Source: Escherichia phage vB_EcoM-Ro157lw. Taken from it: a stretch of DNA of 64,000 bases. A program made the position numbers and the translations under genes. This document shows, one piece after another, positions 136-63,182 of the stretch; within the stretch, counting starts at the first letter, position 1, and each line of letters opens with the position of its first letter. A model generated the notes under the pieces. That model was not told the origin of the DNA. It saw nothing but the letters and a program-made list of their open reading frames with translations, and did not search any database. Where the stretch lies: the sequence record MH051335.1; one strand, written 5' to 3'.

Positions 136-359
136 AACCAGCCAGCAGCGGCTAAGTCATTGATTTGCATAACACGCGGCGAAAGGGATGGATTTCTTTT
201 ATACGTATCAAACAGTACACCAAGCACCACGGTCCGCTATTCATTAAGCATTGTGATTTATGTACGTTTACAGCCAATTTGAACATCAATCTGCACTTGA
301 ATATAATGTTCAATCATTGTATAATTCACACTATTAATTTGCACTATGGGATTTGCACT

Positions 360-833
360 ATGAGTCAAGATTATGTAGCAATGCCTGAAGACTTTGAAGA
401 CCCGCGATTTGCAGAGCATAATCAGGCATTATTCGATGAGTTCATTGACCTTGTTATTCAGGGCCATGACATGCGCGCAGCTTTTGCACTAGTATTTGGC
501 ATGGAGGTTGCGACCGATAACTACACTGGCCAGCGAATCCTCTGCACGCAACGCAATCCGTACTACAAGATGCGCTACAAAAAGCGTATGGAAGAGATGC
601 CATTGAAGGAATTGTGGAGCGTAAAGAGTTCCATCCACAATTTAGTGAAGCTTGTGCGTGATCCAGAAGTCGCGGCATCAGCCAAGCTTAATGCCATTCG
701 TGAACTGAATATCATCTACGGCATTACGATGATTGATGAAAACGGCAATAGTAAAATGGGCCGTTCCATGGATGATTTCTACAAGGATTTTGGAGAGGCG
801 GCCAAAGAGGGTGAGCAATTCTCCCGCCACTAG
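360..833 (+). CDS. hypothetical protein (start uncertain; frame is open back to a TTG at 165)
   Basis: ORF track 165..833; first ATG-initiated stretch MSQDY at 360; region upstream is occupied by motif copies; no clear SD. Confidence 0.5.
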   Translation: MSQDYVAMPEDFEDPRFAEHNQALFDEFIDLVIQGHDMRAAFALVFGMEVATDNYTGQRILCTQRNPYYKMRYKKRMEEMPLKELWSVKSSIHNLVKLVRDPEVAASAKLNAIRELNIIYGITMIDENGNSKMGRSMDDFYKDFGEAAKEGEQFSRH

Positions 834-1888: not shown

Positions 1889-2029
1889 AATAAACTCCTA
1901 GTTTGGGAGCGGCGTTAACGACCTATTCGCTAACTCATCCCGTCCCGATATGAGTACATTATAATATAGTGTAGAAAAAAGTAAAGCACTTTTTCGATAA
2001 AAATGCGATAAATTATTTTATCTTTTTTC

Positions 2030-2057
2030 TTTACTTCTTCGTACACTCGCGTATACT
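2030..2057 (+). promoter_or_regulatory. sigma70-like promoter TTTACT-N16-TATACT inside a conserved ~45-bp element
   Basis: Element CTTTACTT.TTCGTACACT...GTTTATATCGAGA repeated upstream of 2113 and 2523. Confidence 0.45.
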
Positions 2058-2426: not shown

Positions 2427-2455
2427 TTTACTTATTCGTACACTAAGACTATAAT
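2427..2455 (+). promoter_or_regulatory. sigma70-like promoter TTTACT-N17-TATAAT (second copy of the conserved element)
   Basis: Consensus -10 hexamer; leader contains an 8-bp stem hairpin at 2478-2498. Confidence 0.5.
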
Positions 2456-5395: not shown

Positions 5396-5451
5396 TTCAT
5401 TCACCTCACTTGTTAACGTATAATGAGTATAACTTAATAGCGCATAAAGTA

Positions 5452-5471
5452 AAGGCGCTTTTCAGCGCCTT
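5452..5471 (-). terminator. hairpin terminator (8-bp stem AAGGCGCT/AGCGCCTT) downstream of the leftward tail-fiber gene
   Basis: Perfect inverted repeat 8 nt after the stop at 5479. Confidence 0.5.
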
Positions 5472-5478
5472 GAGTGAA

Positions 5479-7833
5479 TTATTTTGCTGATTTTAGCGCG
5501 GCTATCTCTGCCTTGAGTTCATCTATCTGATCCATCAATGCAAGAATAGCCTCGTGGTGCAGCGCCGCAGCCACTCCGTAAGTGTCGACTGATTTGATAT
5601 CCTCGACAATTGTGCCATCCTTTAGTTCCGTGTTTGAATATTTCAAAGTCTTTACTGCATCAGGGAATACGCCTTCTACGTCTTGGGCGATAAAGCCAAT
5701 TCCATTCGGTTTTTCTGATTTATCAAGACGCTCCCAAGTCACACCCTTGATCAACCTCATCTTCCCTAACGGGTCTGAAATCCTTTGAATGTTCGTCTTG
5801 ACCCTCTCATCAGACGTGCTAACCCAGTTCCCAGCACTGGCAGTCCCATCAGGGAAAAATCTGAAGTCAGCGGCTTGCCCTGCCCCGTTGTTGATTGATA
5901 TTTGCGCACGCTCTAAGGCTGTGCTGCCGCCGCGAACGCCGCCAAATGTATAGCTGCCATCATACCAATCTCCTGAAAAATATGACACATATCCAGGCGT
6001 TGATTGATTGAAGTTGACCATCCTCATGGCATTTCTTTCATGCGCTGAAACGCCTACTGAGTTCAACGGTTGCGCAACAAGGTCTTTTGGTCTGAGATAT
6101 GCATTAACAGTCAATGCGCCATCACTTCTCTGAGTCTCAATTTGCGTTATTGAGTCCGGGAAAGATAGTGCTCCATATTGGTTGAATGACCACTCTTGCA
6201 CACCATTTGAAACTATTGCTCCACATTCAGACGATGATCCATCAATCTTGCCGTATGCCTGCAAGAATGCTTGATACGCGATGTTCGTGCCAATCTTATA
6301 TTCAGATTTTACACTACCGCCTCTGACAAGCGTTCCGGTTGCAGGTTTTACTGCGTCGCCGTTGATAACGCTCCAAGACGTATTCGCGGCAACAAATCCA
6401 CCCGATGCACGAATCACCCAAACGCCTTCAAAGGCATTAGGTCGAACTTCATTTGCACCATCACGCCCATAAGCGCCATTGGAAAGGCTTGCATCAATGT
6501 TCAATCCGTTCCTATAGTTAAGGTTTGTTGCACCTCCGTCTGGACCAACTCTTAGGCCTGGAATAACAACAGGTGCTGGAACTATTGCCCCTGTCCCTGT
6601 GTTACCTGCCGTGTTATATTGCGTTGATATTGAAGTACCAATTGAACCGGTTATGTTTGGCGCTGCGTTTTGTCTTACGCGACCGTCAGAAGAAGACACT
6701 CCACCATCGCCTCGTCCAAATAAGCCTGGGATGGACCCCGCTTGGACACCGTTTCTGTCTGGTACGCGGAATGTTGTTGTTCCGTTGCCCAAAGAATATT
6801 TGCCGCGTTTTGCTGGGTCGGCAAGCCAGTCAGCATCGGCAATAGGGGAAAGCATTTGCGCATAAGCCCAAAGTTCAGGCCAGTCTGCACGATTTAACAA
6901 TTGTCCGTCAGAAACGACTTCATAAGGTTGAATATAAGCACGGCTGTCCCGTAAGTGGAAATCACCGACGCCATAGTTCATAACACCGTTCATGCTTGGG
7001 CCAACAGTTCCGGTGTTTACTAAGTTCTCAACCCAACGTTTAGTCGCGGCGTCATAATCATTTACAGGGTCGCCAGCAAGCGGAGTTGGGCCTATCGGTC
7101 GGATATTCAGCCATGCCTGCGCGTTATCACCTGATCCTGTGCCTCCCATCGAAGTAGGAACAATATTTTGATCAGCGACTTGCCCGAATCCAAAAGCGGA
7201 CTTCATCCCTTGGATGGTAGTTTGTCCTGTGCCGCCGTTGGCTACTGGGATGACAGATTCGCTGTTGTATATTTGCTCCCATCGACTCCAAACTCCATTT
7301 ACCGCGTTGTAAGTCCTTTGGTATGTAACATTGTTGTAGTATGTTGAGTATCTTTGTACACAACTTTCTATTGATGGTCCAGTTTTTAGAACTTCAAGGA
7401 CTCCTGCTTGTAAAACTGGGTAATTAAGAACAGGCTGAGCATCTGCATTGAAGTCTTGGAAATAATTTCCAAACCAAGAGCCTGTCAGAAAGTTGAGATT
7501 TATCCCAGAAGGAAGTTTGCCATAATTTCTTACAACCCCTGTTAAGGTCGCAGCAGTGTTACGAATGGAAAGCAGATCTCCAGTCGCCCATGCACGCGCT
7601 GCAGTCCCTTCCTGTGCACGCTGCACGGTCAGGACGTTCCCAACCACGGCTGTTACTGTGACGATTTCGAATTGAAGGCCTGTTGCAGCGTCAACGATTG
7701 TCGCCACTACGCTCTCGTTTGCGCCCAAGGTCGGAAAGTCCGACCCTGAGCGAATTGTGATTGTGGTGTCTGAAGTCGTCGTTGGTTGAGCCAGCGCGAC
7801 CTCAAAGTTGTTTTTGAATATTAGCCTTGGCAT
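5479..7833 (-). CDS. tail fiber protein with tail-collar domain and C-terminal intramolecular chaperone (peptidase S74-type)
   Basis: Collar-like motif LLNRADWPELWAYAQ...FRVPDRNG; C-terminal SDERVKTNI...GFIAQDVE plus terminal coiled coil typical of self-cleaving fiber chaperones; GAGGA SD. Confidence 0.75.
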   Translation of the reverse strand: MPRLIFKNNFEVALAQPTTTSDTTITIRSGSDFPTLGANESVVATIVDAATGLQFEIVTVTAVVGNVLTVQRAQEGTAARAWATGDLLSIRNTAATLTGVVRNYGKLPSGINLNFLTGSWFGNYFQDFNADAQPVLNYPVLQAGVLEVLKTGPSIESCVQRYSTYYNNVTYQRTYNAVNGVWSRWEQIYNSESVIPVANGGTGQTTIQGMKSAFGFGQVADQNIVPTSMGGTGSGDNAQAWLNIRPIGPTPLAGDPVNDYDAATKRWVENLVNTGTVGPSMNGVMNYGVGDFHLRDSRAYIQPYEVVSDGQLLNRADWPELWAYAQMLSPIADADWLADPAKRGKYSLGNGTTTFRVPDRNGVQAGSIPGLFGRGDGGVSSSDGRVRQNAAPNITGSIGTSISTQYNTAGNTGTGAIVPAPVVIPGLRVGPDGGATNLNYRNGLNIDASLSNGAYGRDGANEVRPNAFEGVWVIRASGGFVAANTSWSVINGDAVKPATGTLVRGGSVKSEYKIGTNIAYQAFLQAYGKIDGSSSECGAIVSNGVQEWSFNQYGALSFPDSITQIETQRSDGALTVNAYLRPKDLVAQPLNSVGVSAHERNAMRMVNFNQSTPGYVSYFSGDWYDGSYTFGGVRGGSTALERAQISINNGAGQAADFRFFPDGTASAGNWVSTSDERVKTNIQRISDPLGKMRLIKGVTWERLDKSEKPNGIGFIAQDVEGVFPDAVKTLKYSNTELKDGTIVEDIKSVDTYGVAAALHHEAILALMDQIDELKAEIAALKSAK

Positions 7834-7871: not shown

Positions 7872-8213
7872 TTAATTTCTTTTGAGAGGAATATGACGGT
7901 TGCTGTCATTATTTGGTTTAATAATGAGCATAAAAACGATTAGAAAGATGATGGCTGATATACTTAATTCAATCAGCGCCGCTTGAGATATGGATTGATC
8001 TTCATGATACTGCTTTTGCATTTCTGCTTTCTTCTGAGCGCAAACTTCAGGTGATATATAATCGCCTTTTGAGTTGCCATAATAAATCTCGCCATTCTCA
8101 GAAATAAGCCTGCCGCAAATATCCGTTTCAGCTTTTGCGCTTGAAATCATAATAACGGTGCCGATGATAGCGGCGATAGTCCAGATTAGCAGTTGTGATA
8201 AAGTATTGTTCAT
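7872..8213 (-). CDS. membrane protein (N- and C-terminal hydrophobic segments)
   Basis: ORF track; AGAGG SD. Confidence 0.55.
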   Translation of the reverse strand: MNNTLSQLLIWTIAAIIGTVIMISSAKAETDICGRLISENGEIYYGNSKGDYISPEVCAQKKAEMQKQYHEDQSISQAALIELSISAIIFLIVFMLIIKPNNDSNRHIPLKRN

Positions 8214-8408
8214 GATAACCTCTTTAATTCCCTTCCCATATCGGGAAGGGCAAATATTATTTTACGCGAAAGAATAGGCGCGTGCCACACAGCGAGTCCC
8301 AACGGCCCTCACCATCCCATATCGACCCAACACCAGCAGCGATTGGTCCAGCAGAATTGGCGGCATTGGCCCAGGCGAGTCGTTTAAGCTTCCAACTGCA
8401 CCAACGAT

Positions 8409-8642
8409 TCACAGTTCGCCTCCAGACTTCAAAATTAATCCCGCATAGATTATTGCCAGAGCTAAAGGCGCACCGTCGCCAGCCTCTCTATTCTCTTTGA
8501 TTTGAAGAGTATCTTTTAGGAATTGAAGCTGAACGTTGAATTCATTTTCAATTCCAAGCACTCCAGCTAATCCTTTTACAGAATCTGCATATGCCTTGTC
8601 TATCACTTCTTTTGGCACCGTTAAGGTTAATTCATTTGCCAT
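8409..8642 (-). CDS. hypothetical protein (ATG at 8642; track extends to TTG at 8660)
   Basis: ORF track. Confidence 0.5.
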   Translation of the reverse strand: MANELTLTVPKEVIDKAYADSVKGLAGVLGIENEFNVQLQFLKDTLQIKENREAGDGAPLALAIIYAGLILKSGGEL

Positions 8643-8853
8643 TTTCTTTCCACTCCACAAATGTACTGCTACTTGTTTCTCTATTTAGCAGGTATCTGCC
8701 GCGCATTCCACGAAGGCTGAATTCAACCGTCGATGGATTAGATTTTGAAAGCCACATCACTTGACCGTCGAACGGTCCGCCAACGCATGTGTATTTGGCC
8801 TTTGGCTCACTCCTTTTGGGCCTCTTTGCCCGCTCTTTGATTGATAGTCTCAT
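8632..8853 (-). CDS. hypothetical basic protein
   Basis: ORF track; AAGGTGA SD. Confidence 0.5.
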   Translation of the reverse strand: MRLSIKERAKRPKRSEPKAKYTCVGGPFDGQVMWLSKSNPSTVEFSLRGMRGRYLLNRETSSSTFVEWKENGK

Positions 8854-9068
8854 CAGTCTTCACCTTGAGATTCAAGACAAGTAAGAACAAGCCACGTCAT
8901 CGGAAGAATCAAAACCAGAGAAATAAGTGACCAAATGGACCAACACAAGATGACAGACTTGAATGTGTGAACGTCGCCAAACGCAGCAGTGAAACAAAAT
9001 CCCATTACGAAAGCAATCGCTGTGGAGTGATTATCAATGGCTTTGATGGCGCGGTCGATGAGTTTCAT
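8853..9068 (-). CDS. small membrane protein with two predicted TM segments (holin candidate, unproven)
   Basis: ORF track; GGAGGT SD; hydrophobic stretches. Confidence 0.5.
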   Translation of the reverse strand: MKLIDRAIKAIDNHSTAIAFVMGFCFTAAFGDVHTFKSVILCWSIWSLISLVLILPMTWLVLTCLESQGED

Positions 9069-9149
9069 ATTACCTCCGGTTTTGAGTTAATATGATTATA
9101 ATGCAGAATTTCAGAAAGGCAAACTTTTTGTGAATTTAAATTAAAAAAA

Positions 9150-9170: not shown

Positions 9171-9246
9171 AAAAGATCACCCTTTATCCACTACTAAGCT
9201 GGAATCATAATTTTACTTGATATAGCTGTCTCAAGCAAACTATAAT

Positions 9247-10707
9247 ATGAATAAAATATTAACACATAATTGGAAAGTCATGTACCAGTTGAATCCTGCT
9301 TTAAGAGAAGTCTGGAAGACGAAAGCGCGATACAAAGTCATATACGGCGGTCGTGCATCTTCCAAATCGCACGATGCCGCTGGTTTTGCTATTTATTTGG
9401 CGGCAAACTTCAAATTAAAATTCCTTTGCGTTCGACAATTCCAGAACAAGATTTCTGAATCAGTATATACGCTATTAAAAGATAAAATAGAGATTTCTGA
9501 TTTTAAAGACGAGTTCAACTTATTAAAGAACTCTATTGAACACAAAAGAACAAAATCTGAATTTTTATTTTACGGTATCGCACGCAACGTTGACGAAATC
9601 AAATCAACAGAAGGTGTTGATGTTCTTTGGCTTGAAGAAGCGCATGCACTGACTGAAGAGCAATGGGACATCATTGAGCCGACAATTCGTAAGGAAGGGT
9701 CCGAAATATGGATCATATTTAACCCTGATGAAGAGGCTGATTTTGTCTACCAGAACTTTGTCATGCGACCGCCGAAGAATGCCATCGTTAAGAAGATTAA
9801 CTGGCAGGACAACCCATTCTTGTCGCAAACAATGCTGGATGTTATAGCTGGCATGTATGAGCGCGACCCGAAAAAGGCAGAACACGTTTATGGCGGAGTA
9901 CCGAAGACTGGCGGCGACAAGTCGGTCATCAACCGTGCATTTGTCAAGGCCGCGCTAAACCTCCACAAACACCCTACGCTGGGGTGGAGCTTGTCAGGGT
10001 CTAACCGTATAGGCTTCGACGTGGCGGACGACGGCGACGACTTAAACGCCACAGCGTTTGTCACAGGCAACGTATTACGTGGCATCAAGACATGGGAAGG
10101 TCTGGAAGATGAATTGCTTAAGTCCGCAAGCGGAGTTTGGAAAGACGCATTGACATTCGGCGCATCAATCACCTATGACGCCATCGGTGTTGGTGCATTT
10201 GCTGGTTCAAAATTTGATGAGCTTAATGAGTATGCAATCCATGAAAATCCAACATTCCCAAGAATCGAATTTAATGCGTTCAACGCGCAAGGTGCTGTTG
10301 ATGATCCTGATGACGTTTTCCTTGAGTTACCACACGTTGAAATACTCAATAAAGACCATTTCGCAAACATAAAAGCGCAAAAATGGACTGAGATTGCCGA
10401 ACGATTCAGAAAGACATATGAGTATGCGACAGGGCAAGCCGTATATCCGACCGATGAGTTGATTTCCATCGACACAGACGGCATCCCAGAACTTGGTATT
10501 CCCGCTTGGTCTGCCGAAGAAATTGAGACGTTTCTTTTTGAGATGTCAGCACCGCGCAAAGACACGTCTGTTCTTGGTAAGTTCAAAGTTGAATCGAAAA
10601 AAGATATGGCAAAGCGTGGAGTCAAATCGCCTAACAAAGCGGACGCAGCAATCATGGCATTGATGAAACCAATTGTTGCAGCATCCGGCTTCTTCTCTAA
10701 CCTTTAA
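9247..10707 (+). CDS. terL: terminase large subunit
   Basis: Deviant Walker A GGRASSKS, Walker B VDVLWLEEA; position ahead of portal. Confidence 0.8.
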   Translation: MNKILTHNWKVMYQLNPALREVWKTKARYKVIYGGRASSKSHDAAGFAIYLAANFKLKFLCVRQFQNKISESVYTLLKDKIEISDFKDEFNLLKNSIEHKRTKSEFLFYGIARNVDEIKSTEGVDVLWLEEAHALTEEQWDIIEPTIRKEGSEIWIIFNPDEEADFVYQNFVMRPPKNAIVKKINWQDNPFLSQTMLDVIAGMYERDPKKAEHVYGGVPKTGGDKSVINRAFVKAALNLHKHPTLGWSLSGSNRIGFDVADDGDDLNATAFVTGNVLRGIKTWEGLEDELLKSASGVWKDALTFGASITYDAIGVGAFAGSKFDELNEYAIHENPTFPRIEFNAFNAQGAVDDPDDVFLELPHVEILNKDHFANIKAQKWTEIAERFRKTYEYATGQAVYPTDELISIDTDGIPELGIPAWSAEEIETFLFEMSAPRKDTSVLGKFKVESKKDMAKRGVKSPNKADAAIMALMKPIVAASGFFSNL

Positions 10708-16194: not shown

Positions 16195-16223
16195 TTGCCT
16201 AAGTTTTTTTCATTAGATATAAT
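16195..16223 (+). promoter_or_regulatory. sigma70-like promoter TTGCCT-N17-TATAAT upstream of the scaffold/capsid genes
   Basis: Hexamers read directly, just after the iteron region. Confidence 0.4.
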
Positions 16224-16246: not shown

Positions 16247-17665
16247 ATGCGAATGCAAACGGCACGCGAAATTGACAAAAATGGATTCTTGACGATTGTG
16301 GGTTGTCCCATTTCGTCATTTGGCATTTTTGATTATTCTGCAGGTCAGGTTGGACTTGATGGTGATCCGAATCGCATCGTAAAAGTTTATCGCCCAGAGT
16401 CAGCGGTGAAAGACCCCGAAGCGATAGATTCATTCAAAAATATCCCTTTCATCGACAATCACGAAATGCTTTCTGGATTCGAAGGTGATGAGGATAACAC
16501 AGCACCCGAAGAGTATGGCGTTGATGGCGTTCTGACTGGCAATGTTTATTATGACAAGCCATGGATGCGCGGCGACCTTAAAGTTTTTAGCCGTCGTCTG
16601 AAGAAGGCCATCGATTCTGGAAAGGTTGACTTGTCTTTGGGCTATGACTGTGAATTCATCATACAGTCTGGAGAGTTTGACGGGCAGCCGTATGAAGTGG
16701 TACAGACAACTCTTCGCGGCAACCACATTGCTCTCGTGGACGTTGGTCGAGTACCAGGTGCACGGGTGCTGGATGGTCGTTGCTTTGACCATCTTTGTTT
16801 GACGACTGTAACACCATCCAACGAGGATTTAGACATGCCAAAACCGTTAAAAGGTAAAGCGCGTGATAATGCTGTTGAACAGCTGAAATCACTGATCCCT
16901 GCGCTCGAACAATTTCTGAATGAAGAGAGCACCGAAGCTGCTCATCAGGACGAAGTTGAAGTGAAAGCAGAAGAGAAGGATTCAACCGAAGAACGTGAAG
17001 AAGTGATGGTTGATCCAGAAGTCAAAGCAGAAGCTGAAGAGACTCCAGAAGGTGAAGAGAAGTTTGAAGTTGAAACTGAATCTCACGCTGGCGGCGAGCT
17101 TCCGCAACTGATCAGCCAAATCGAAGCACTTATTGCAAAACTGAAAGGTGGCGCGGTAGGTGATGAAGAAGAAGTTGAAGCCGAAGTCAAAGACGAAGAA
17201 GTTGAAGTCAAGGCTGAAGATGTATCACCTTGCGACAAAGCTGAAGATGTGGTTAGCGGCCTGCAAAACAGCAACGTAAAGGGGGCTTCGGTCGAAAAAG
17301 ATGACAAACCGACAAAAGCGGCGAAAGCGTCGCCAGGTCCAGCAAAAGGGGAACACTCAATGGCATCTGATTCAGCAGTTGCTGCTTTCTACGCTGATTC
17401 TGCTCGTAAGAATAGCCTCTACCAGCGCCTGTCTAAAGTTGTTGGTGCCTTTGATCATGCAACTATGGACTCCAAGTCCGTAGCGAAATATGGCGCTAAA
17501 AAGTTAGGCTTGAAGTGCGTTGATGGTGCTGAGTTTGACGTGGTGGATAATTATCTGCGCGGCGTTGAACACGGTCAAAAACAGCGTGTAGTCGCAAAAC
17601 AAAAGGCCGCTGCGGATTCTGCAGCAACTGACGAAGCATTTGAAGCTTGGTTGAAAGGGGAATAA
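16247..17665 (+). CDS. capsid scaffolding protein (N-terminal domain possibly prohead-protease-like; acidic central region)
   Basis: Position before capsid gene; E-rich low-complexity centre. Confidence 0.5.
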   Translation: MRMQTAREIDKNGFLTIVGCPISSFGIFDYSAGQVGLDGDPNRIVKVYRPESAVKDPEAIDSFKNIPFIDNHEMLSGFEGDEDNTAPEEYGVDGVLTGNVYYDKPWMRGDLKVFSRRLKKAIDSGKVDLSLGYDCEFIIQSGEFDGQPYEVVQTTLRGNHIALVDVGRVPGARVLDGRCFDHLCLTTVTPSNEDLDMPKPLKGKARDNAVEQLKSLIPALEQFLNEESTEAAHQDEVEVKAEEKDSTEEREEVMVDPEVKAEAEETPEGEEKFEVETESHAGGELPQLISQIEALIAKLKGGAVGDEEEVEAEVKDEEVEVKAEDVSPCDKAEDVVSGLQNSNVKGASVEKDDKPTKAAKASPGPAKGEHSMASDSAVAAFYADSARKNSLYQRLSKVVGAFDHATMDSKSVAKYGAKKLGLKCVDGAEFDVVDNYLRGVEHGQKQRVVAKQKAAADSAATDEAFEAWLKGE

Positions 17666-17667
17666 AC

Positions 17668-18285
17668 ATGACTTTCCAAACTAGTGTAGGCCGTCAATAT
17701 ACAACTGGCTTTCCTGGCGACATCGTTCGCGACGGCCCACAGCGTGGGAAGCCAGGCCGAATTGCCAACGCTAACGAAGGCGCAAACGTAAACGCCATCA
17801 GCCGTGTGTTCGGTTTTAAGACTGACGTATCCTTAATGGGTACTGGTCAAACCAAAACTTTGGGCGCGCAGGACTTTGAAGTTGAGCTGGGCGGCACTAA
17901 CTACTACGGCATCCTCGGCAATAGCAAGCGTTACGCGCTGTATGGCAACTCTACTGGTCCTTTGGGTGCCAGCATGGTTCTGCCTCAATATAGCGAAGGC
18001 GAGTTCTATGATATGTGCACGGGCCTCGTAGTTGAAGTATTCAACCCAAGCACCAGTCCGCAGACGCTTAACTATGGCGACCTGCTTGCTTATGTACCTA
18101 AAGGCATTTCCAGCGGTAACAACCCGAACAACTTGCCTATTGGTGCAATTATCGCCTATACTGGCTCATTGCCAACTGGCATGGTTGCCATCCCAGGCGG
18201 TATTGTGATTGACCCGACGACTATTGCCCTTTCCGGCCCAAGCGTCCAGTCTTCCACTTATACCATTGTACAATTGACTCGTTAA
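17668..18285 (+). CDS. hypothetical head protein (decoration candidate)
   Basis: ATG at 17668 with AAAGGGG SD; between scaffold and capsid genes. Confidence 0.5.
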   Translation: MTFQTSVGRQYTTGFPGDIVRDGPQRGKPGRIANANEGANVNAISRVFGFKTDVSLMGTGQTKTLGAQDFEVELGGTNYYGILGNSKRYALYGNSTGPLGASMVLPQYSEGEFYDMCTGLVVEVFNPSTSPQTLNYGDLLAYVPKGISSGNNPNNLPIGAIIAYTGSLPTGMVAIPGGIVIDPTTIALSGPSVQSSTYTIVQLTR

Positions 18286-32612: not shown

Positions 32613-35351
32613 ATGCAAAAGTTTGACACAAACCTGTTGCAAAACCTTAAGTGGATGCAGAACAACGCGCCAAACATCACATCTTTGGTTCAGAAGAAGA
32701 GTGATTGGTATGAGCGATATCAAGATCAGTTTTGGATTGACTGGTACAAAAACATATTCAACATTGATACTTGTGATGCAATGGGCATCTATATTTGGTG
32801 CGACATCCTATGCATACCAAGAGACTTTGTTGACTTAAGTAACTATGAGCACAACTGGGCATTCGGGCCAACACGCGACAACTTTGAAGGGCCGGACAAT
32901 ATCGGCGGCAACTTCTTTGGTGCTGGCGGAAAGGTTGTGAAAAACATTGAAGAAGCGCGCATCCTTCTGAAGCTTCGTTATCTGACGCTTACAAGTGATG
33001 GCCGCATCGAAAGCATCAACCGTATGCTTAAGTGGATTTTTAACCGTGGGGAAGCTTGGGATTACTCTTCATCCAGATACGCATATGTGACAGACAATAC
33101 TCAAGGCGCGGTGTCTTCTTCTGAATCAACAAACGGTTCATTCCTTCTGTATGACTGGCAGGGGTCGACTGAGATTCAGCACGATTATAAACAAATTCTT
33201 TTGAGTCACGGCAACAACGCAGGACTTACCATAAGTGGGGTGGCAGGGACTGTTTCGCGAATGGCACACCCAGACTGGTATTCATGGGGTAATGGCTCCG
33301 GCGCTGGTATTGTCGGCGGTGATACGCGCCAATATGGCGGCCCTGACTATTACGGCCAACTGTGTGGTGATTACCCAGGAGAGGCCATAGAGAATTTCGC
33401 CAACGCAGTACGGGTCATCAAGACCGCTTCCAGCGGCGAGCCTGTGTATTCTTTGGCCAGTAATCCAAGCGCCCAATCTATTGCGCTTCCTTCTCAGGCT
33501 GGTGTCAATGTTTGCTATAGCTTCTACATAAAAGTGCTTTCTGAAAACGTGGCTTCTGTTTCCGTAACAGAGAACAGTGATGCATCGAGTAATGGAAAAC
33601 TTTTCGACCCAGTGACTGGGCAGTTCAACCTTGACTCTTCTTTGAGTTATTTCATCACAGGCAAGTTCGACGGTGTGAGAAGGGAATCAAACCGTGGTGG
33701 CATCAAGGCAATCGGCGGCGATTGGTACAGAATCTGGATTGTAGAACAAACTGCGAACGCGACAGCTGGGGTAAACACAAGCTTTTCAATTGAGTTGAAA
33801 GCAACTGCCGCTGGATCAACTCAGACTCGCGAATTGCCTGAAGGGTCTGATGCGCTTCTTTTTGGATACTCAATTTGTGTTTGCGACCCTGTTCAGAATC
33901 CTAATGGGCCTGAGCCTTATTTCTATGGGACTCAAAATCCGCCTGCAGATGGCACAGCAATTTTGTCTGTTACGGCAGGAACGCTCAACAACATTTCTTG
34001 CGCAAACGGTCCGTTGACGACAAGAAATGGCGTGGTGGGCGAGTCATTTATGCAGCCTGGGTCATCACTTGCGTACTCTGGTTCAATCGGCGGCTACCCG
34101 TACCCAGGAAACGCCACTCTAATCGCAGAAACAGACGGAATCAGACGCTCATGGAACGTTAGCCGATTGGACGGAGTACCGCCGCCGCCGACCGCTGACT
34201 ATTACATGGAATATGTCATCGGGCCTTATTTCGCCAACAACTTGTCTGATAACTTTAAGACGCTAGTTGGCGACAGGAATGAAGGATTCTTGCCAGCCAA
34301 TGCCGGAATACGTTGGCAGCTTTACCAAGAAGTCGCAGACTTATCCGATATTGATTTGACTGTCAGCAACATAACAGACACGCGAGTAGGATTCGAAACG
34401 GAAGGTGTCGCATGGATTAACACTGACGGGATCATCAGAGTTGGCGGCATAAACGAGTGGCCGTTGAACAACTTTAATGGTGTTATAAGACAGCTTGAAT
34501 CTCTGAAAGGTGTGAACCAAGTCATCGACGGCGCACTTGTCAACGACTATTCAATCTCAAAAGCTTCAAGAGATGACTTTGGTCGTGAAATTCCACGCGC
34601 GGCAATCACTAACTACTGGCGATACACACAGCCCAATGACGGCACATCTTTTGGCAATATCGTCAAGGACGGAGCTAACACGGTAACGGCGACGCCAATC
34701 AGCGGTGTGCCCAACCAGTTCCCATCATTCAAGCTTTCCGCTACAATAGGGACTGTGCCAGCGTCCGGTTATGCACGCGCTGTACTTGCTACTAAATACA
34801 CTGGCACCTTGACTGGTCCTTTGTCATTTATCGCAATAGTTAAAAACAACACGGTAAACGGTCAAAAACTTTTCGTAACCGTACCGGATGGTATGGGCGG
34901 CTATATCCCTAAATTCTACAGCATAGGCGCAGGTGATTTGCAACGTATCGAAATTGACCTTGCTGCTGAGATTGTTGCAGGAACGACTTGGGATGGTTCG
35001 ACAGGTGGAATCAGCATTGGTTTGATATCAGGGAAAGACTTGCCGACCGAAGTTGGTACGACTCTTGAACTTGATATTTTAAGCTTGATGCTTGTTTCTG
35101 GTAATACGATGAATGCGCTTGCGATTTCAACAAGCGAAGACTTTACAAAGAAAACTGCAACTTCTATATACATCAAAAACCCAGGGTCACTGGCGACTGG
35201 AGTTCAATTGATAGCTTCGAATGGGGATGTTGTAGCGACAGTAAACTTTCCAAGAAGTGCTGCTGGCGGTTATGTTTCAAGCATGAATATAACTGACTTA
35301 ACTGGTGATTGGGCATCAACCCTTTTATCAAAAATTAAATACATCGTGTAG
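32613..35351 (+). CDS. large baseplate/tail fiber protein
   Basis: 912 aa; GAGGA SD; position in tail module. Confidence 0.5.
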   Translation: MQKFDTNLLQNLKWMQNNAPNITSLVQKKSDWYERYQDQFWIDWYKNIFNIDTCDAMGIYIWCDILCIPRDFVDLSNYEHNWAFGPTRDNFEGPDNIGGNFFGAGGKVVKNIEEARILLKLRYLTLTSDGRIESINRMLKWIFNRGEAWDYSSSRYAYVTDNTQGAVSSSESTNGSFLLYDWQGSTEIQHDYKQILLSHGNNAGLTISGVAGTVSRMAHPDWYSWGNGSGAGIVGGDTRQYGGPDYYGQLCGDYPGEAIENFANAVRVIKTASSGEPVYSLASNPSAQSIALPSQAGVNVCYSFYIKVLSENVASVSVTENSDASSNGKLFDPVTGQFNLDSSLSYFITGKFDGVRRESNRGGIKAIGGDWYRIWIVEQTANATAGVNTSFSIELKATAAGSTQTRELPEGSDALLFGYSICVCDPVQNPNGPEPYFYGTQNPPADGTAILSVTAGTLNNISCANGPLTTRNGVVGESFMQPGSSLAYSGSIGGYPYPGNATLIAETDGIRRSWNVSRLDGVPPPPTADYYMEYVIGPYFANNLSDNFKTLVGDRNEGFLPANAGIRWQLYQEVADLSDIDLTVSNITDTRVGFETEGVAWINTDGIIRVGGINEWPLNNFNGVIRQLESLKGVNQVIDGALVNDYSISKASRDDFGREIPRAAITNYWRYTQPNDGTSFGNIVKDGANTVTATPISGVPNQFPSFKLSATIGTVPASGYARAVLATKYTGTLTGPLSFIAIVKNNTVNGQKLFVTVPDGMGGYIPKFYSIGAGDLQRIEIDLAAEIVAGTTWDGSTGGISIGLISGKDLPTEVGTTLELDILSLMLVSGNTMNALAISTSEDFTKKTATSIYIKNPGSLATGVQLIASNGDVVATVNFPRSAAGGYVSSMNITDLTGDWASTLLSKIKYIV

Positions 35352-35361
35352 AGGAACGGCA

Positions 35362-37149
35362 ATGCCAACACTTATTAACAGACCTTTCGCGCAAAGCGGT
35401 GATGTATCCGTGGTGCCGGATGCAAGCCCAAGCGGTTATGTAAACTTCCAGCGCGGCTACACCCCTGACTATGCGCTTGCTCTGGAGGCCGGAAACGTCG
35501 CCGCGAAAGCTGTTGAGCGCGAATCGATGAACTGGTTGCTGAATTTGATTACAGACAACCTTATGTTTATTCAAGATCATGGTGCTCAACAATATTTCTC
35601 TTCTGACTTGAAGCCGGATGGATACCCGAAAAATGCCATTGTTGTCAGCAACTCTGGAACGCCTTCAGCGCCTGAGTGGCGCATCTTTCAAAGCGTGGTC
35701 GACGGCAACACAAGCGCCGTACCAGCTAACGGAGAAACGGAATCTTGGCAGGAATTAACGCTGCCCAGCGAAGCGCGAAAATACATTCCGATGCCTGCCG
35801 GAGGCGATGCGCAAAACCCGTACTTCGTTCGCGGATTGATTTCAAGCTTTGTGGACTTCGATAATATTACGACTTCCACAACTATCGTCATTCAATCCGA
35901 TGCCGTCGCCGCTCTGTGCTCTAACATCCCGAATGCGGTTGGCGCGACGAAGGTTGCAGGTCGCCTTCAGGTTTGCGCTTGGCAGGTCGATGCGCAAACC
36001 TTTGCCTTGCAGCAATATACATCAATGAATGGCTATTTGTTTACCCGCTCTTACACTTCTGGTGCTTGGAGTGCTTGGATTCAAAATGCCACTGTTCAAG
36101 ACGTGCAAATTGGAACGCCGAATCTTGCATCAGGTAAAGGAGCGCAAGACATAATCCTTACCGTCCCAGCAGGTTATTCATGGCCTCCGTCAGCAGGTAG
36201 TCGCCTGACAATCGTCAATGATGTAACGACTACCGGACCTGTCACCGTGACCATTGGTGTAAACAAAGTTGCCGTTCTTGGATTCGACGGCGGCGAGTTG
36301 CCAGCTGGCGCTATCGTAGGCTTGCTGCCATTCACCATCATTTATGACGGCACTGTTTGGCGTCTCCTTCAGGCGTTTGGCGCGGCGCAAATCGGCGTTG
36401 ATGCTACTGAGGCGCAACAGTTTGTTACAAAGCGCCAACTCGATGCTTTGGCTGCGAAATTGATCACTATGGGCGACGTATTCGAAGTCGGTGAGACTCG
36501 ATTCCTCACCAACGGAACAGACCCGAATACTAAACTGGGCGCTTACGGCCAGGTATGGACACGACTTCCTGATAACATGGTCATCAGAACATCTGGCACG
36601 GCGCGAAACGGTCTTGCCACTGGCGGCGCGGACTCTGTTACTCTCACCGCTGCAATGCTTCCTCTCCACAATCACAGCGTGAACATTACCACGCGACAAA
36701 GTGGTCCATGGTCTAATACCACTGGAGATGCTGGAAATCACAACCACACAGGTGATACAAGTCAAAACGGTGCTCACGTGCATGGAATGGATACGGCAGG
36801 CAACCATCACCATGACAGCAGCTGGGGTGAAGCCAATACTAGCGATGCGCGGTACGGCGTTTATGATGGGACACACAACAACTTCGGAAGTCGCAAAGGC
36901 GGCGACTGGGATAACTACAAATACAACACTTCGACTAACGGCAACCACGTCCATAATATTCAATCTTCTGGATCACACACCCATGGGTTGAATATAAATT
37001 ACGCTGGCAATCACAGCCACAGTTATACCCTTCCCGCTCACACTCATGATGTGGTCGGTAACACTGGCGATGCAGGACAGTCGGTGCCAACGGCTGTTGC
37101 GACTTTGCCGCGATACGTTGTTTTGAATGGCTGGTACAGAAGCGCATAA
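35362..37149 (+). CDS. tail fiber protein with His-x-His repeat tip domain
   Basis: Repeated HNH/HVH/HTH/HSH motifs in the C-terminal third, as in lambda Stf and T4 gp37-type tips; GAGGAA SD. Confidence 0.6.
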   Translation: MPTLINRPFAQSGDVSVVPDASPSGYVNFQRGYTPDYALALEAGNVAAKAVERESMNWLLNLITDNLMFIQDHGAQQYFSSDLKPDGYPKNAIVVSNSGTPSAPEWRIFQSVVDGNTSAVPANGETESWQELTLPSEARKYIPMPAGGDAQNPYFVRGLISSFVDFDNITTSTTIVIQSDAVAALCSNIPNAVGATKVAGRLQVCAWQVDAQTFALQQYTSMNGYLFTRSYTSGAWSAWIQNATVQDVQIGTPNLASGKGAQDIILTVPAGYSWPPSAGSRLTIVNDVTTTGPVTVTIGVNKVAVLGFDGGELPAGAIVGLLPFTIIYDGTVWRLLQAFGAAQIGVDATEAQQFVTKRQLDALAAKLITMGDVFEVGETRFLTNGTDPNTKLGAYGQVWTRLPDNMVIRTSGTARNGLATGGADSVTLTAAMLPLHNHSVNITTRQSGPWSNTTGDAGNHNHTGDTSQNGAHVHGMDTAGNHHHDSSWGEANTSDARYGVYDGTHNNFGSRKGGDWDNYKYNTSTNGNHVHNIQSSGSHTHGLNINYAGNHSHSYTLPAHTHDVVGNTGDAGQSVPTAVATLPRYVVLNGWYRSA

Positions 37150-38597: not shown

Positions 38598-38678
38598 TAT
38601 AATTCACCTTTTGATTATGAATATTAATAGTATAGGCTCAAGGTTTTGAAAGTAAATACGCCGAAAGTAAATAAAAGA

Positions 38679-63097: not shown

Positions 63098-63182
63098 ATA
63101 TCAAAAAGGTGAGCTAAATGCTTGCCTTTTCTTTTATCAATACTTATACTCTTTTCATCAAGACTGACAAGCGAGGTGAATT

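What the first reader, a model, noticed from the sequence alone, without database searches (positions are those of the whole stretch)
5479..7833. Leftward tail fiber with self-cleaving chaperone, encoded apart from the tail module; second His-x-His fiber in the tail module
The 784-aa protein has a tail-collar motif and a C-terminal SDERVK-type intramolecular chaperone, yet sits on the opposite strand among accessory genes about 25 kb from the baseplate genes. A second fiber with a His-x-His repeat tip is at 35362..37149. Two receptor-binding proteins with different tip chemistries suggest dual receptor use or a swapped host-range cassette.
Basis: partly seen in the sequence, partly recalled or inferred. 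Interest (0 to 1): 0.4.

Follow-up and report, generated by a model that had tools for sequence, protein, structure and literature searches.

The report
Known two-fibre system of Wifcevirus phages
This is the variable, self-processing side fibre of an E. coli Wifcevirus phage, paired with a conserved His-x-His fibre in the tail module; this two-fibre arrangement was published for the genus in 2025, so the finding is correct but ordinary.

Summary
Window 5479..7833 (-) is an intact 784-aa tail-fibre gene. It ends in a Peptidase_S74 intramolecular chaperone (aa 674-728, E 6.5e-13). Its Ser674/Lys679 pair (SDERVK) is invariant in 54 homologues and aligns with the T5 pb1 motif TSDARLK.

Window 35362..37149 (+) is a second fibre with eight HxH motifs. 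Its N-terminus matches the Pbunavirus baseplate fibre.

The window is a Wifcevirus myophage. The same gene sits at the same place in all relatives examined (nearest is RCIP0363, 98.6% nt).

The BASEL completion paper (PMC11990801) already describes both fibres: a conserved HxH fibre, and a variable "T-shaped" fibre with a gp12-like RBD1, a T5-like RBD2 and the chaperone.

Results added here:
- The fibre has three hypervariable modules that reassort almost independently: a pyocin-type knob, the RBD1 loops, and RBD2 with its chaperone. This copy is a chimera.
- The gene ends a discrete leftward unit between terS and terL. That unit's promoter-like motif recurs before two head genes.
- Pantoea phage Kyle carries an EPS depolymerase in the same slot.

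Pfam Collar is not matched. Cleavage and fibre attachment remain untested. Novelty: already known. Interest: low.

The parts
5479..7833 (-). Variable side ('T-shaped') tail-fibre gene, 784 aa, 83.5 kDa precursor
   Evidence: ORF; phrog_6921 tail fiber E 9e-226; 98.6% nt to RCIP0363 and syntenic in Wifcevirus relatives; 906 homologues, mostly on ~68-kb contigs
7534..7833 (-). aa 1-100: conserved N-terminal anchor domain (presumed baseplate attachment)
   Evidence: Mean pairwise identity 96% among 118 fibres; aa 4-97 align to the N-terminus of the 8jov_1 tail fibre, and tblastn finds Ralstonia GP4, Burkholderia BcepMigl/BcepIL02, Klebsiella and Pantoea phage fibres. The attachment role is inferred.
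7249..7533 (-). aa 101-195: pyocin-type knob domain, variable between relatives
   Evidence: phmmer/hmmsearch to R2 pyocin fibre 6ct8/6cl6 (E 7e-5 single sequence, 2.8e-9 profile). It is the only confidently modelled part (pLDDT 75-90). Foldseek top hit 6cl6_A, E 2.9e-4. 33 sequence types, mean identity 56%.
6964..7248 (-). aa 196-290: conserved shaft/linker
   Evidence: Mean pairwise identity 95%; from aa 234 onward about 80% identical to DT57C LtfA
6334..6963 (-). aa 291-500: RBD1 (gp12/collar-like according to the literature), with a conserved core and hypervariable loops at aa 381-460
   Evidence: Within the aa 234-557 match to DT57C LtfA 540-869, E 2e-120. The core aa 282-400 is shared with T5-like, phiEco32-like, Yersinia and Burkholderia phage fibres. 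Loops: 37 types, mean identity 36%. Pfam Collar not matched.
5815..6333 (-). aa 501-673: RBD2, the distal tip domain served by the chaperone; the most variable module
   Evidence: 23 types, mean identity 28%. 95% identical to P0045 from another phage type. 57-67% to Gordonclarkvirinae (EP335) and T5-like (FFH_1) fibres. The T5 pb1-like fold is taken from PMC11990801 and is not reproduced here.
5482..5814 (-). aa 674-784: Peptidase_S74 intramolecular chaperone. Predicted autocleavage T673|S674 gives a 71.2-kDa mature fibre and a 12.2-kDa fragment.
   Evidence: PF13884 49.2 bits. S674 and K679 invariant in 54 of 54. Aligns to T5 pb1 TSDARLK and S16 gp37 SSDRRIK. Profile hits to 8jov, the MYRF ICA domain 7dc3 and GA-1 3gud. 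Masses, coordinates.
9095..9122 (-). Promoter-like TTGCCT-16-TATAAT at the head of the leftward unit that ends with the fibre gene
   Evidence: The motif TTGCCT-N16-18-TATAMT occurs 4 times in the window against 0.01 expected, twice before head genes. It is conserved at the same place in RCIP0363, Bas98 and Mansfield. Function is inferred.
7872..9068 (-). Four small ORFs (71, 73, 83 and 113 aa) upstream of the fibre in the same leftward unit; function unknown
   Evidence: The 113-aa ORF lies directly upstream of the fibre in RCIP0363, Bas98 and Mansfield.
5452..5471 (-). GC-rich hairpin 8 nt after the fibre stop codon (weak T-tail), immediately followed by a TTTACT-16-TATACT promoter-like site
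35362..37149 (+). Conserved baseplate tail fibre, 595 aa, with an HxH needle-type tip
   Evidence: N-terminal aa 2-372 match Pa193 gp47 tail fibre 9b45_2, E 1.3e-31. phrog_5717 E 3.5e-175. 91-99% identical in 28 Wifcevirus records.
36667..37047 (+). aa 436-562 of the second fibre: eight HxH motifs, arranged 4 + 4 around a His-poor insert
   Evidence: PMC11990801 predicts a T4 gp37-like tip for the 95.8%-identical ManiWeber Gp32.
32613..35351 (+). Baseplate wedge/triplex protein (DUF2612), 912 aa, immediately upstream of the HxH fibre. It has about 340 extra C-terminal residues relative to Pbunavirus. It is a candidate docking partner only; this is speculative.
   Evidence: PF11041. It matches Pa193 gp46 / E217 gp45 only at aa 4-185 and 509-572. 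Orthologue lengths: MyoSmar 251, Pbunavirus 500-504, Kyle 592.

Best explanation
The window is a Wifcevirus myophage of E. coli. Gene 5479..7833 (-) encodes the genus's variable side fibre, presumably a homotrimer.

Modular build of the protein:
- aa 1-100: a conserved N-terminal anchor, which presumably fixes the fibre to the baseplate (inferred).
- aa 101-195: a pyocin-type knob.
- aa 196-290: a conserved shaft.
- aa 291-500: a lateral receptor-binding domain, RBD1, with hypervariable loops.
- aa 501-673: a distal tip domain, RBD2.
- aa 674-784: an S74 intramolecular chaperone.

Proposed maturation. The chaperone trimerises and templates folding of RBD2. It then cuts itself off at T673|S674 using the Ser674/Lys679 pair. 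This step is inferred from motif conservation and from T5 pb1 and endosialidase precedent.

Proposed function. The mature fibre of about 71 kDa binds variable surface glycans, with O-antigen most likely. Host range evolves by recombinational exchange of the knob, the RBD1 loops and the RBD2-chaperone block. These exchanges occur among Wifceviruses and also with T5-like siphoviruses and phiEco32-like podoviruses. The exchange is shown by the sequence data.

Second fibre. The fibre at 35362..37149 is the orthologue of the single Pbunavirus baseplate fibre. It is nearly invariant in the genus. It most likely acts after O-antigen binding, on a conserved inner target or as the mechanical trigger for contraction (inferred; this is the published suggestion).

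Gene placement. The side-fibre gene is the last gene of a discrete leftward unit between terS and terL. Its promoter-like element is of the same type as those before two head genes. That would allow co-expression with morphogenesis genes despite the distance from the tail module (inferred).
For: Identity and synteny.

Chaperone:
- Pfam S74 above threshold.
- S674/K679 invariant in 54 of 54.
- Motif aligns with the T5 pb1 motif TSDARLK and with S16 gp37.
- Profile hits to other ICA-domain structures.
- RBD2 and chaperone distances co-vary at rho 0.64, while other module pairs are at 0.01-0.46.

Knob.

RBD1 homology to DT57C LtfA, whose C-terminal region determines O-antigen specificity; PMC4728585.

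Module shuffling:
- 33, 37 and 23 types giving 77 combinations in 118 fibres, with all-four-combination quartets present.
- Chimeric best matches for this copy.
- Cross-morphotype sharing.

Virion and expression evidence in orthologues: mass-spectrometry detection of vB_Eco4M-7_27 and ECML-117 gp24 (PMC7048862).

O-antigen dependence:
- vB_Eco4M-7 needs the O157 antigen (PMC11074155).
- Bas98-101 need O16 (PMC11990801).

Second fibre.

Transcription-unit features.

Published description of both fibres: PMC11990801.
Against: - No experiment on this phage. Cleavage, trimer state, baseplate attachment and glycan binding are all inferred.
- The AlphaFold monomer model is poor (mean pLDDT 48.7) outside the knob, so neither the T shape nor the T5-like fold of RBD2 could be reproduced.
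- hhalign against T5 pb1 aligns only the cleavage motif, at E 0.064.
- Pfam Collar is not matched.
- The mass-spectrometry preparations in PMC7048862 also contained non-structural proteins, so virion incorporation is likely but not proven.
- A C-terminal HiBiT fusion to the orthologue gp27 is viable. This is compatible with release of the chaperone but does not demonstrate it.
- The promoter assignments are pattern matches only.
Confidence: 0.85

Rival explanations
1. Alternative-use model. The two fibres are independent, interchangeable adhesins that each open a different host set, as with the dual tailspikes of SP6 or K1-5. They do not act in sequence on one host.
For: Two fibres with unrelated tips are present. 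PMC11990801 states that the relationship of the two fibre sets is unclear and reports broad lysis host ranges for Wifceviruses, including some rough strains.
Against: The HxH fibre is 91-99% identical across 28 records from phages isolated on different serotypes. It therefore cannot account for host differences. Bas98-101 depend totally on O16 O-antigen despite carrying it. vB_Eco4M-7 loses infectivity on rfbE mutants.
Confidence: 0.15
2. The protein is an enzymatic tailspike or depolymerase (for example an endosialidase) rather than a non-enzymatic fibre. Some records annotate it this way ('endo-N-acetylneuraminidase' in vB_EcoM_SP13).
For: The S74 chaperone was first described on endosialidases. 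One GenBank record uses that name. The syntenic slot in Pantoea phage Kyle holds an EPS depolymerase.
Against: The only Pfam hit is the chaperone itself. No sialidase, beta-helix or lyase family matches, even at E<=10. All strong PHROG hits are tail-fibre families. The body is homologous to the non-enzymatic fibres DT57C LtfA and the R2 pyocin knob. There is no similarity to the Kyle enzyme.
Confidence: 0.03
3. The gene is a recent, phage-specific insertion (a moron or displaced cassette) at an unusual place. Its position would then tell something particular about this genome.
For: It lies on the opposite strand among small ORFs with no known function, 22-27 kb from the baseplate genes. It is bracketed by hairpins. 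Pbunavirus and Myosmarvirus relatives lack any large gene in this slot.
Against: The same gene occupies the same position, with the same upstream 113-aa ORF and the same promoter-like motif, in every Wifcevirus checked: RCIP0363, Bas98, Mansfield, ECML-117, WFH, WFC and FEC19. The acquisition is therefore ancestral to the genus. Only the internal modules are recent.
Confidence: 0.04

Closest known systems
T-shaped dual-RBD tail fibre of Wifcevirus phages (Gp114 of ManiWeber/Bas99; Bas98-101), PMC11990801
   Same: Orthologous gene at the same genomic position. It has the same conserved N-terminal anchor, the same RBD1-RBD2-chaperone order, and the same partner HxH fibre (Gp32, 95.8% identical).
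   Different: This copy has a different combination of variable modules. Nucleotide similarity to Bas98-101 is confined to roughly the first 1,455-1,472 nt, and the RBD2 type is shared with FEC19/EC150 instead. The variable knob (aa 101-195) is not singled out in that paper. The T shape could not be re-derived here.
LtfA of T5-like phage DT57C (PDB 8HQZ chain d; PMC4728585, PMC10713586)
   Same: aa 234-557 are about 80% identical to LtfA 540-869 (E 2e-120). The profile aligns through to the C-terminal chaperone. LtfA is an O-antigen-specific fibre with a predicted autocleaved S74 domain.
   Different: LtfA is 1076 aa and sits on a siphovirus. It attaches through a T5-type N-terminus to the LtfC collar and carries a second fibre, LtfB. 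The RBD1 loops and RBD2 diverge from this protein. Only the N-terminus of LtfA is resolved in the structure.
Phage T5 L-shaped tail fibre pb1 with its intramolecular chaperone; endosialidase K1F and GA-1 gp12 chaperones (Peptidase_S74)
   Same: A C-terminal S74 domain with the S-D-x-x-x-K motif, aligned as VSTSDERVK to INTSDARLK. A long C-terminal helix is present (H751-783).
   Different: No detectable sequence similarity outside the cleavage motif. pb1 has a single tip domain and no lateral RBD1.
phiEco32-like (Gordonclarkvirinae) lateral fibres, for example EP335 gp13, which binds O157/O26 (PMC8217332)
   Same: RBD2 plus chaperone are 57-67% identical over aa 512-784. The RBD1 core is 65-71% identical.
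   Different: These are podovirus fibres attached through a proximal fibre, and their N-termini are unrelated.
Pbunavirus baseplate tail fibre (Pa193 gp47, PDB 9B45; E217) and the T4 gp37 needle tip: relatives of the second fibre
   Same: N-terminal 370 aa are homologous to gp47 (E 1.3e-31). The gene occupies the same place, after the DUF2612 wedge protein and before the endolysin. The HxH repeats resemble the metal-binding needle of T4 gp37 (established knowledge; predicted for Gp32 in PMC11990801).
   Different: The C-terminal tip is unrelated to that of gp47. There is no sequence hit to solved gp37 structures. Pbunaviruses have no second, side fibre.

Membership tests
Peptidase_S74 / intramolecular chaperone auto-processing domain (endoNF, T5 pb1, GA-1 gp12) | Pfam PF13884 match above the gathering score | tested here: met
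   49.2 bits against a cut-off of 22, E 6.5e-13, aa 674-728. All 54 homologues match.
Peptidase_S74 / intramolecular chaperone auto-processing domain (endoNF, T5 pb1, GA-1 gp12) | Catalytic Ser-Lys pair in an S-D-x-x-x-K motif at the domain's N-terminal edge | tested here: met
   S674 and K679 are invariant in 54 of 54. They align to T5 pb1 TSDARLK and S16 gp37 SSDRRIK.
Peptidase_S74 / intramolecular chaperone auto-processing domain (endoNF, T5 pb1, GA-1 gp12) | Located at the extreme C-terminus of a fibre or spike and ending in a long helix (coiled coil in the trimer) | tested here: met
   The domain is the last 111 aa. The model has helix 751-783 with pLDDT 62-84.
Peptidase_S74 / intramolecular chaperone auto-processing domain (endoNF, T5 pb1, GA-1 gp12) | Autoproteolytic release after trimer folding | not testable with these tools
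   Needs mass spectrometry or SDS-PAGE of virions, or S674A/K679A mutants.
Wifcevirus T-shaped dual-RBD side fibre (PMC11990801) | Orthology and synteny with Gp114 of Bas99 / Bas98_0110 | tested here: met
   Same position and neighbours. Anchor 96% and shaft 95% mean identity.
Wifcevirus T-shaped dual-RBD side fibre (PMC11990801) | Two separately variable receptor-binding regions followed by the chaperone | tested here: met
   Variability peaks at aa 381-460 and aa 501-673, plus a third peak at aa 121-200.
Wifcevirus T-shaped dual-RBD side fibre (PMC11990801) | T-shaped trimer with a T5 pb1-like fold for RBD2 | tested here: inconclusive
   The monomer AF2 model is too poor (pLDDT <50-69 in this region). 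hhalign to pb1 aligns only the cleavage motif.
Phage tail collar / gp12 receptor-binding domain (Pfam PF07484, SSF88874) | Profile match to the Collar domain | tested here: not met
   No PF07484 hit at E<=10 for this protein. Only 3 of 54 homologues match at E<=0.01. No gp12 chain was found by profile search of the PDB. SSF88874 is reported by others for orthologues (note; PMC11990801), so the resemblance is at superfamily or fold level.
Pyocin knob domain (R-type pyocin fibre PA0620) | Sequence and fold similarity to the knob of the R2 pyocin fibre | tested here: met
   6ct8 E 7e-5 with a single sequence and 2.8e-9 with a profile. Foldseek 6cl6_A E 2.9e-4, prob 1.0, on the one confident region. 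NCBI names homologues 'pyocin knob domain-containing S74 family peptidase'.
T4 gp37-type HxH needle tip (second fibre) | Repeated HxH motifs on two antiparallel stretches of the C-terminal tip | tested here: met
   8 HxH in aa 436-562, arranged 4+4. None of 2000 shuffles reached 8.
T4 gp37-type HxH needle tip (second fibre) | Sequence homology to solved gp37 tips; metal-ion coordination | tested here: not met
   There is no PDB sequence hit for the C-terminal part. Metal binding is not testable here.
Pbunavirus-type baseplate tail fibre (Pa193 gp47) | Homologous N-terminal baseplate-binding region and the conserved gene order wedge-fibre-endolysin | tested here: met
   aa 2-372 against gp47 4-368, E 1.3e-31. 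The upstream gene matches gp46 wedge 2. A GH19 endolysin lies downstream.
Endosialidase / depolymerase tailspike | Catalytic sialidase, lyase or beta-helix domain | tested here: not met
   No such Pfam or PDB match.

The most novel reading that the evidence does not exclude
The side fibre may carry three exchangeable specificity modules in one polypeptide, not the two that were published. The pyocin-type knob (aa 101-195) shows 33 sequence types and reassorts independently of RBD1 and RBD2, so it could be a third glycan-contact site.

Two further ideas go with this. First, the leftward unit between terS and terL could be a conserved 'accessory adhesin slot' for this phage lineage. It holds a fibre in Wifcevirus and an EPS depolymerase in Kylevirus, and is empty in Pbunavirus and Myosmarvirus. 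It appears to be driven by a head-gene-type promoter. Second, the roughly 340-aa C-terminal extension of the 912-aa baseplate wedge protein could be the docking site. These two ideas are less likely than the knob idea.
Probability: 0.25. Interest if true: 0.35.

Novelty: already known. Interest (0 to 1): 0.15.

Why it matters
The fibre is the probable host-range determinant of a phage genus that is of practical interest. vB_Eco4M-7 and ECML-117 are used for O157 detection and biocontrol, and the genus replicates very fast.

Knowing the exact module boundaries and the predicted cleavage site (T673|S674) is directly useful for engineering:
- swapping RBDs to retarget the phage;
- placing reporter tags upstream or downstream of the cleavage site.

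It does not change current understanding. The two-fibre layout, the chaperone, the HxH tip and horizontal exchange of the RBDs are all published.

Tried and rejected
- AlphaFold2 monomer of the full fibre with a 54-sequence alignment gave mean pLDDT 48.7, usable only for the knob. Foldseek against the PDB therefore returned only the pyocin fibre; the other hits are noise.
- hhalign of the fibre profile against the T5 pb1 C-terminus aligned only the cleavage motif.
- Pfam at E<=10, NCBIfam, and a PDB profile search were run for Collar/gp12. Nothing matched.
- The Kyle EPS depolymerase was compared with the fibre to look for a shared anchor. There is no similarity.
- PHROG scans of nine neighbouring small ORFs, MyoSmar gp095 and E215 gp71 found nothing related to fibres or assembly.
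- The depolymerase/endosialidase reading and the 'recent displacement' reading were rejected; the reasons are given under the rival explanations.
- The second structure job and further large-database searches were not spent on the HxH tip. A monomer model of an intertwined needle would be uninformative, and the 95.8%-identical Gp32 has a published trimer prediction.
Full report
**Observation**

The ORF at 5479..7833 on the minus strand is real and intact. It is 784 aa with an ATG start and a GAGGA ribosome-binding site 8-12 nt upstream. SDERVK begins at residue 674.

Pfam Peptidase_S74 ('chaperone of endosialidase') matches aa 674-728 at 49.2 bits against a cut-off of 22, E 6.5e-13. PHROGs places the whole protein in tail-fibre family phrog_6921, E 9e-226.

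The second fibre is also real. The ATG at 35362 follows the stop of the upstream gene at 35351 and gives 595 aa. It has eight HxH motifs within aa 436-562. Composition-matched shuffles of the C-terminal region give 1.8 +/- 1.2, and none of 2000 reached 8.

The one soft point is the 'tail-collar motif'. The stretch DGQLLNRADWPELW...TTFRVPDRNG looks collar-like. However, Pfam Collar is not matched even at E<=10, and only 3 of 54 homologues match it at E<=0.01.

**What the window is**

The fibre gene is 98.6% identical over its full length to an unannotated gene of Escherichia phage RCIP0363. It matches partially to FEC19, vB_Eco4M-7, ECML-117, WFH, WFC, Mansfield and Bas98-101. The first 25 kb of the window is 91-97% identical to these Wifcevirus myophages.

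Window position 1 corresponds to position 1 of phage Mansfield, whose first 3,673 bp are annotated as a direct terminal repeat. The gene therefore lies 5.5-7.8 kb from the left physical end. It sits between a small-terminase-like gene (165..833) and the large terminase gene (9247..), on the opposite strand. It is surrounded by small ORFs with no known function.

The same gene, with the same 113-aa membrane-protein ORF directly upstream, occupies this position in RCIP0363, Bas98 and Mansfield. The placement is a fixed feature of the genus, not a displacement in this genome.

**Anatomy of the 784-aa protein**

Sequence searches of solved structures, with a single sequence and with a 54-sequence profile, define five regions.

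| Region | Residues | Evidence |
|---|---|---|
| Anchor | 4-97 | Aligns to the N-terminus of a tail fibre in PDB 8JOV. By tblastn it also matches fibres of Ralstonia GP4, Burkholderia, Klebsiella and Pantoea phages. |
| Knob | 104-191 | Matches the knob of the R2 pyocin fibre. It is the only region AlphaFold models confidently (pLDDT 75-90). Foldseek returns 6cl6_A first, E 2.9e-4. |
| Shaft and RBD1 | 234-557 | About 80% identical to LtfA of the T5-like phage DT57C. LtfA is an O-antigen-specific fibre whose divergent C-terminal region sets host specificity (PMC4728585). |
| RBD2 | 501-673 | No solved relative by sequence. |
| Chaperone | 674-784 | S74 chaperone. |

In the 54-sequence alignment, S674 and K679 are invariant while almost everything around them varies. 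hhalign places VSTSDERVK on T5 pb1 INTSDARLK, and phmmer places it on S16 gp37 SSDRRIK.

By analogy, cleavage at T673|S674 would leave a 71.2-kDa mature fibre and a 12.2-kDa fragment. Cleavage itself was not and cannot be tested here.

**Modularity**

I aligned the query with 120 database homologues, nearly all 755-795 aa long and most on contigs of about 68 kb. Within 118 Wifcevirus-type fibres:

| Module | Mean pairwise identity | Types at 80% |
|---|---|---|
| Anchor | 96% | - |
| Shaft | 95% | - |
| RBD1 core | 91% | - |
| Knob | 56% | 33 |
| RBD1 loops | 36% | 37 |
| RBD2 | 28% | 23 |

These types give 77 distinct combinations. Quartets showing all four combinations of two types exist for every pair of modules. 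Distance matrices of different modules are nearly uncorrelated (rho 0.01-0.25). The exception is RBD2 with its chaperone (rho 0.64), as expected if the chaperone travels with its client domain.

The copy in this window is a chimera:

- Its knob is closest to P0013-16/P0019 (94%).
- Its RBD1 loops are closest to P0036/P0042 (87-89%).
- Its chaperone is closest to the FEC19 group (98%).
- Its RBD2 is closest to P0045 (95%). P0045 is a 936-aa fibre with an unrelated N-terminus, encoded next to a GpA-type terminase in a different kind of phage.

RBD2 plus chaperone is also 57-67% identical to fibres of phiEco32-like podoviruses (including EP335) and of T5-like siphoviruses. The RBD1 core is shared with T5-like, phiEco32-like, Yersinia and Burkholderia phages.

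**The second fibre**

Its N-terminal 370 residues are homologous to the baseplate fibre gp47 of Pbunavirus Pa193, E 1.3e-31. The gene upstream matches the Pbunavirus wedge/triplex protein, and a GH19 endolysin follows.

It is 91-99% identical in 28 Wifcevirus records, from phages isolated on different serotypes. This contrasts with 53-81% for the side fibre. It is therefore the ancestral, conserved baseplate fibre and cannot explain host differences.

**Comparison with what is known**

The BASEL completion paper (PMC11990801) states that Wifceviruses carry two fibres. One is conserved with a T4 gp37-like HxH tip (Gp32 of Bas99). The other is variable and 'T-shaped', with a gp12-like RBD1, a T5-like RBD2 and a C-terminal intramolecular chaperone (Gp114). 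The paper reports that the RBDs are exchanged horizontally with Gordonclarkvirinae and Tequintavirus, and that Bas98-101 depend on O16 O-antigen.

Other published evidence on orthologues:

- The orthologues vB_Eco4M-7_27 and ECML-117 gp24 were detected by mass spectrometry (PMC7048862).
- vB_Eco4M-7 needs the O157 antigen (PMC11074155).
- A C-terminal HiBiT tag on gp27 was viable and gave the brightest signal (PMC11074155). This would be expected if the tagged chaperone is released as a soluble fragment. That link is my inference, not the paper's claim.

The finding is thus correct and already known.

(a) The knob is a third hypervariable, independently reassorting module.

(b) The fibre closes a discrete leftward unit.
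- A hairpin at 9170-9150 precedes the promoter-like TTGCCT-16-TATAAT at 9122-9095.
- Four small ORFs and then the fibre follow.
- A hairpin at 5471-5452 comes next, directly followed by a TTTACT-16-TATACT site.
- TTGCCT-N16-18-TATAMT occurs four times in the window against 0.01 expected. Two of these precede head genes at 16247 and 18300.
- The motif is conserved upstream of the unit in three relatives.
- TTTACT-N16-17-TATAMT occurs five times against 0.03 expected, at other unit starts.
- This hints that the fibre unit shares a promoter class with morphogenesis genes. These are pattern matches only.

(c) In collinear relatives the same slot holds different content. Pantoea phage Kyle has an EPS depolymerase there (phrog_4250, E 1.6e-149), with no similarity to the fibre. 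Pbunavirus E215 and Serratia phage MyoSmar have only small ORFs there.

(d) The wedge protein next to the HxH fibre is 912 aa here. It is 592 aa in Kyle, 500-504 aa in Pbunavirus and 251 aa in MyoSmar. Its extra C-terminal 340 aa or so are a speculative docking site for the extra fibre, whose attachment is unknown (PMC11990801).

**Limits**

The T shape, the pb1-like fold of RBD2, trimerisation, cleavage, attachment and glycan binding were not shown here. The monomer model is poor (mean pLDDT 48.7), and no multimer prediction or experiment was available.

**Verdict**

Novelty: already known. Interest is low, at 0.15.

Noticed in passing
window 1958-1985(-), 2030-2057(+), 2427-2455(+), 5426-5453(-), 38629-38656(-): The motif TTTACT-N16/17-TATAMT occurs 5 times against 0.03 expected. 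The sites lie at the starts of transcription units in the left-end region and at the head of the leftward block at 38.6 kb. This may be a phage-specific class of sigma-70-type (early?) promoters.
   Followed up: partly
window 9095-9122(-), 16195-16223(+), 18133-18162(+), 63122-63150(+): A second motif, TTGCCT-N16-18-TATAMT, occurs 4 times against 0.01 expected. It sits before the fibre unit, before two head genes, and before a small ORF near the right end. It is conserved upstream of the fibre unit in RCIP0363, Bas98 and Mansfield, and before gp095 of Serratia phage MyoSmar.
   Followed up: partly
window 9217-9247(+): The best sigma-70-like match in the region is TTGATA-18-TATAAT (11 of 12). 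Its -10 element ends one base before the ATG of the large terminase ORF, and there is no visible Shine-Dalgarno sequence. Either the mRNA is leaderless, the true start lies downstream (Mansfield annotates 476 aa against 486 here), or the match is a coincidence.
   Followed up: no
window 165-833(+) and 9247-10707(+): The small-terminase-like gene (phrog_4783; Mansfield's annotators report an HHpred match to a small terminase) is separated from the large terminase gene by about 8.4 kb of mostly leftward small ORFs plus the fibre gene. In Mansfield it lies inside the 3.7-kb terminal repeat.
   Followed up: partly
window 32613-35351(+): The baseplate wedge/triplex protein (DUF2612) is 912 aa. It matches Pbunavirus gp46/gp45 (about 500 aa) only at aa 4-185 and 509-572. 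That leaves a divergent middle and about 340 extra C-terminal residues. Orthologue length rises in the order MyoSmar 251, Pbunavirus about 500, Kyle 592, Wifcevirus 912. The protein was detected by mass spectrometry in vB_Eco4M-7 (gp62).
   Followed up: partly
L004 (Pantoea phage Kyle NC_048796.1) 5701-7536(-): The syntenic slot between the terS-like and terL genes holds a 611-aa EPS depolymerase (phrog_4250, E 1.6e-149) instead of a fibre. The two proteins share no sequence similarity. The slot appears to be a recurrent landing site for an accessory glycan-targeting protein.
   Followed up: partly
window 7872-8213(-): A 113-aa ORF with hydrophobic N- and C-terminal segments lies directly upstream of the fibre gene. 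It is conserved in that position in RCIP0363, Bas98 and Mansfield. It matches no Pfam or PHROG family.
   Followed up: no
L007 (GCA_905398065.1 contig CAJPWT010000018.1) 8001-10811(+): A 936-aa fibre (P0045) carries an RBD2 95% identical to the one in this window but has an unrelated N-terminus. It sits beside a 2,390-aa protein, a NUDIX protein and a GpA-type terminase, so it belongs to a different phage type. This is a very recent cross-lineage exchange.
   Followed up: partly
literature, orthologue gp27 of vB_Eco4M-7 (PMC11074155): A HiBiT tag fused to the C-terminus of the orthologous fibre gave the strongest luminescence of 13 viable tag sites. The tag lies downstream of the predicted cleavage site, so the signal may come from the released chaperone fragment rather than from virions. 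The paper does not discuss this.
   Followed up: no
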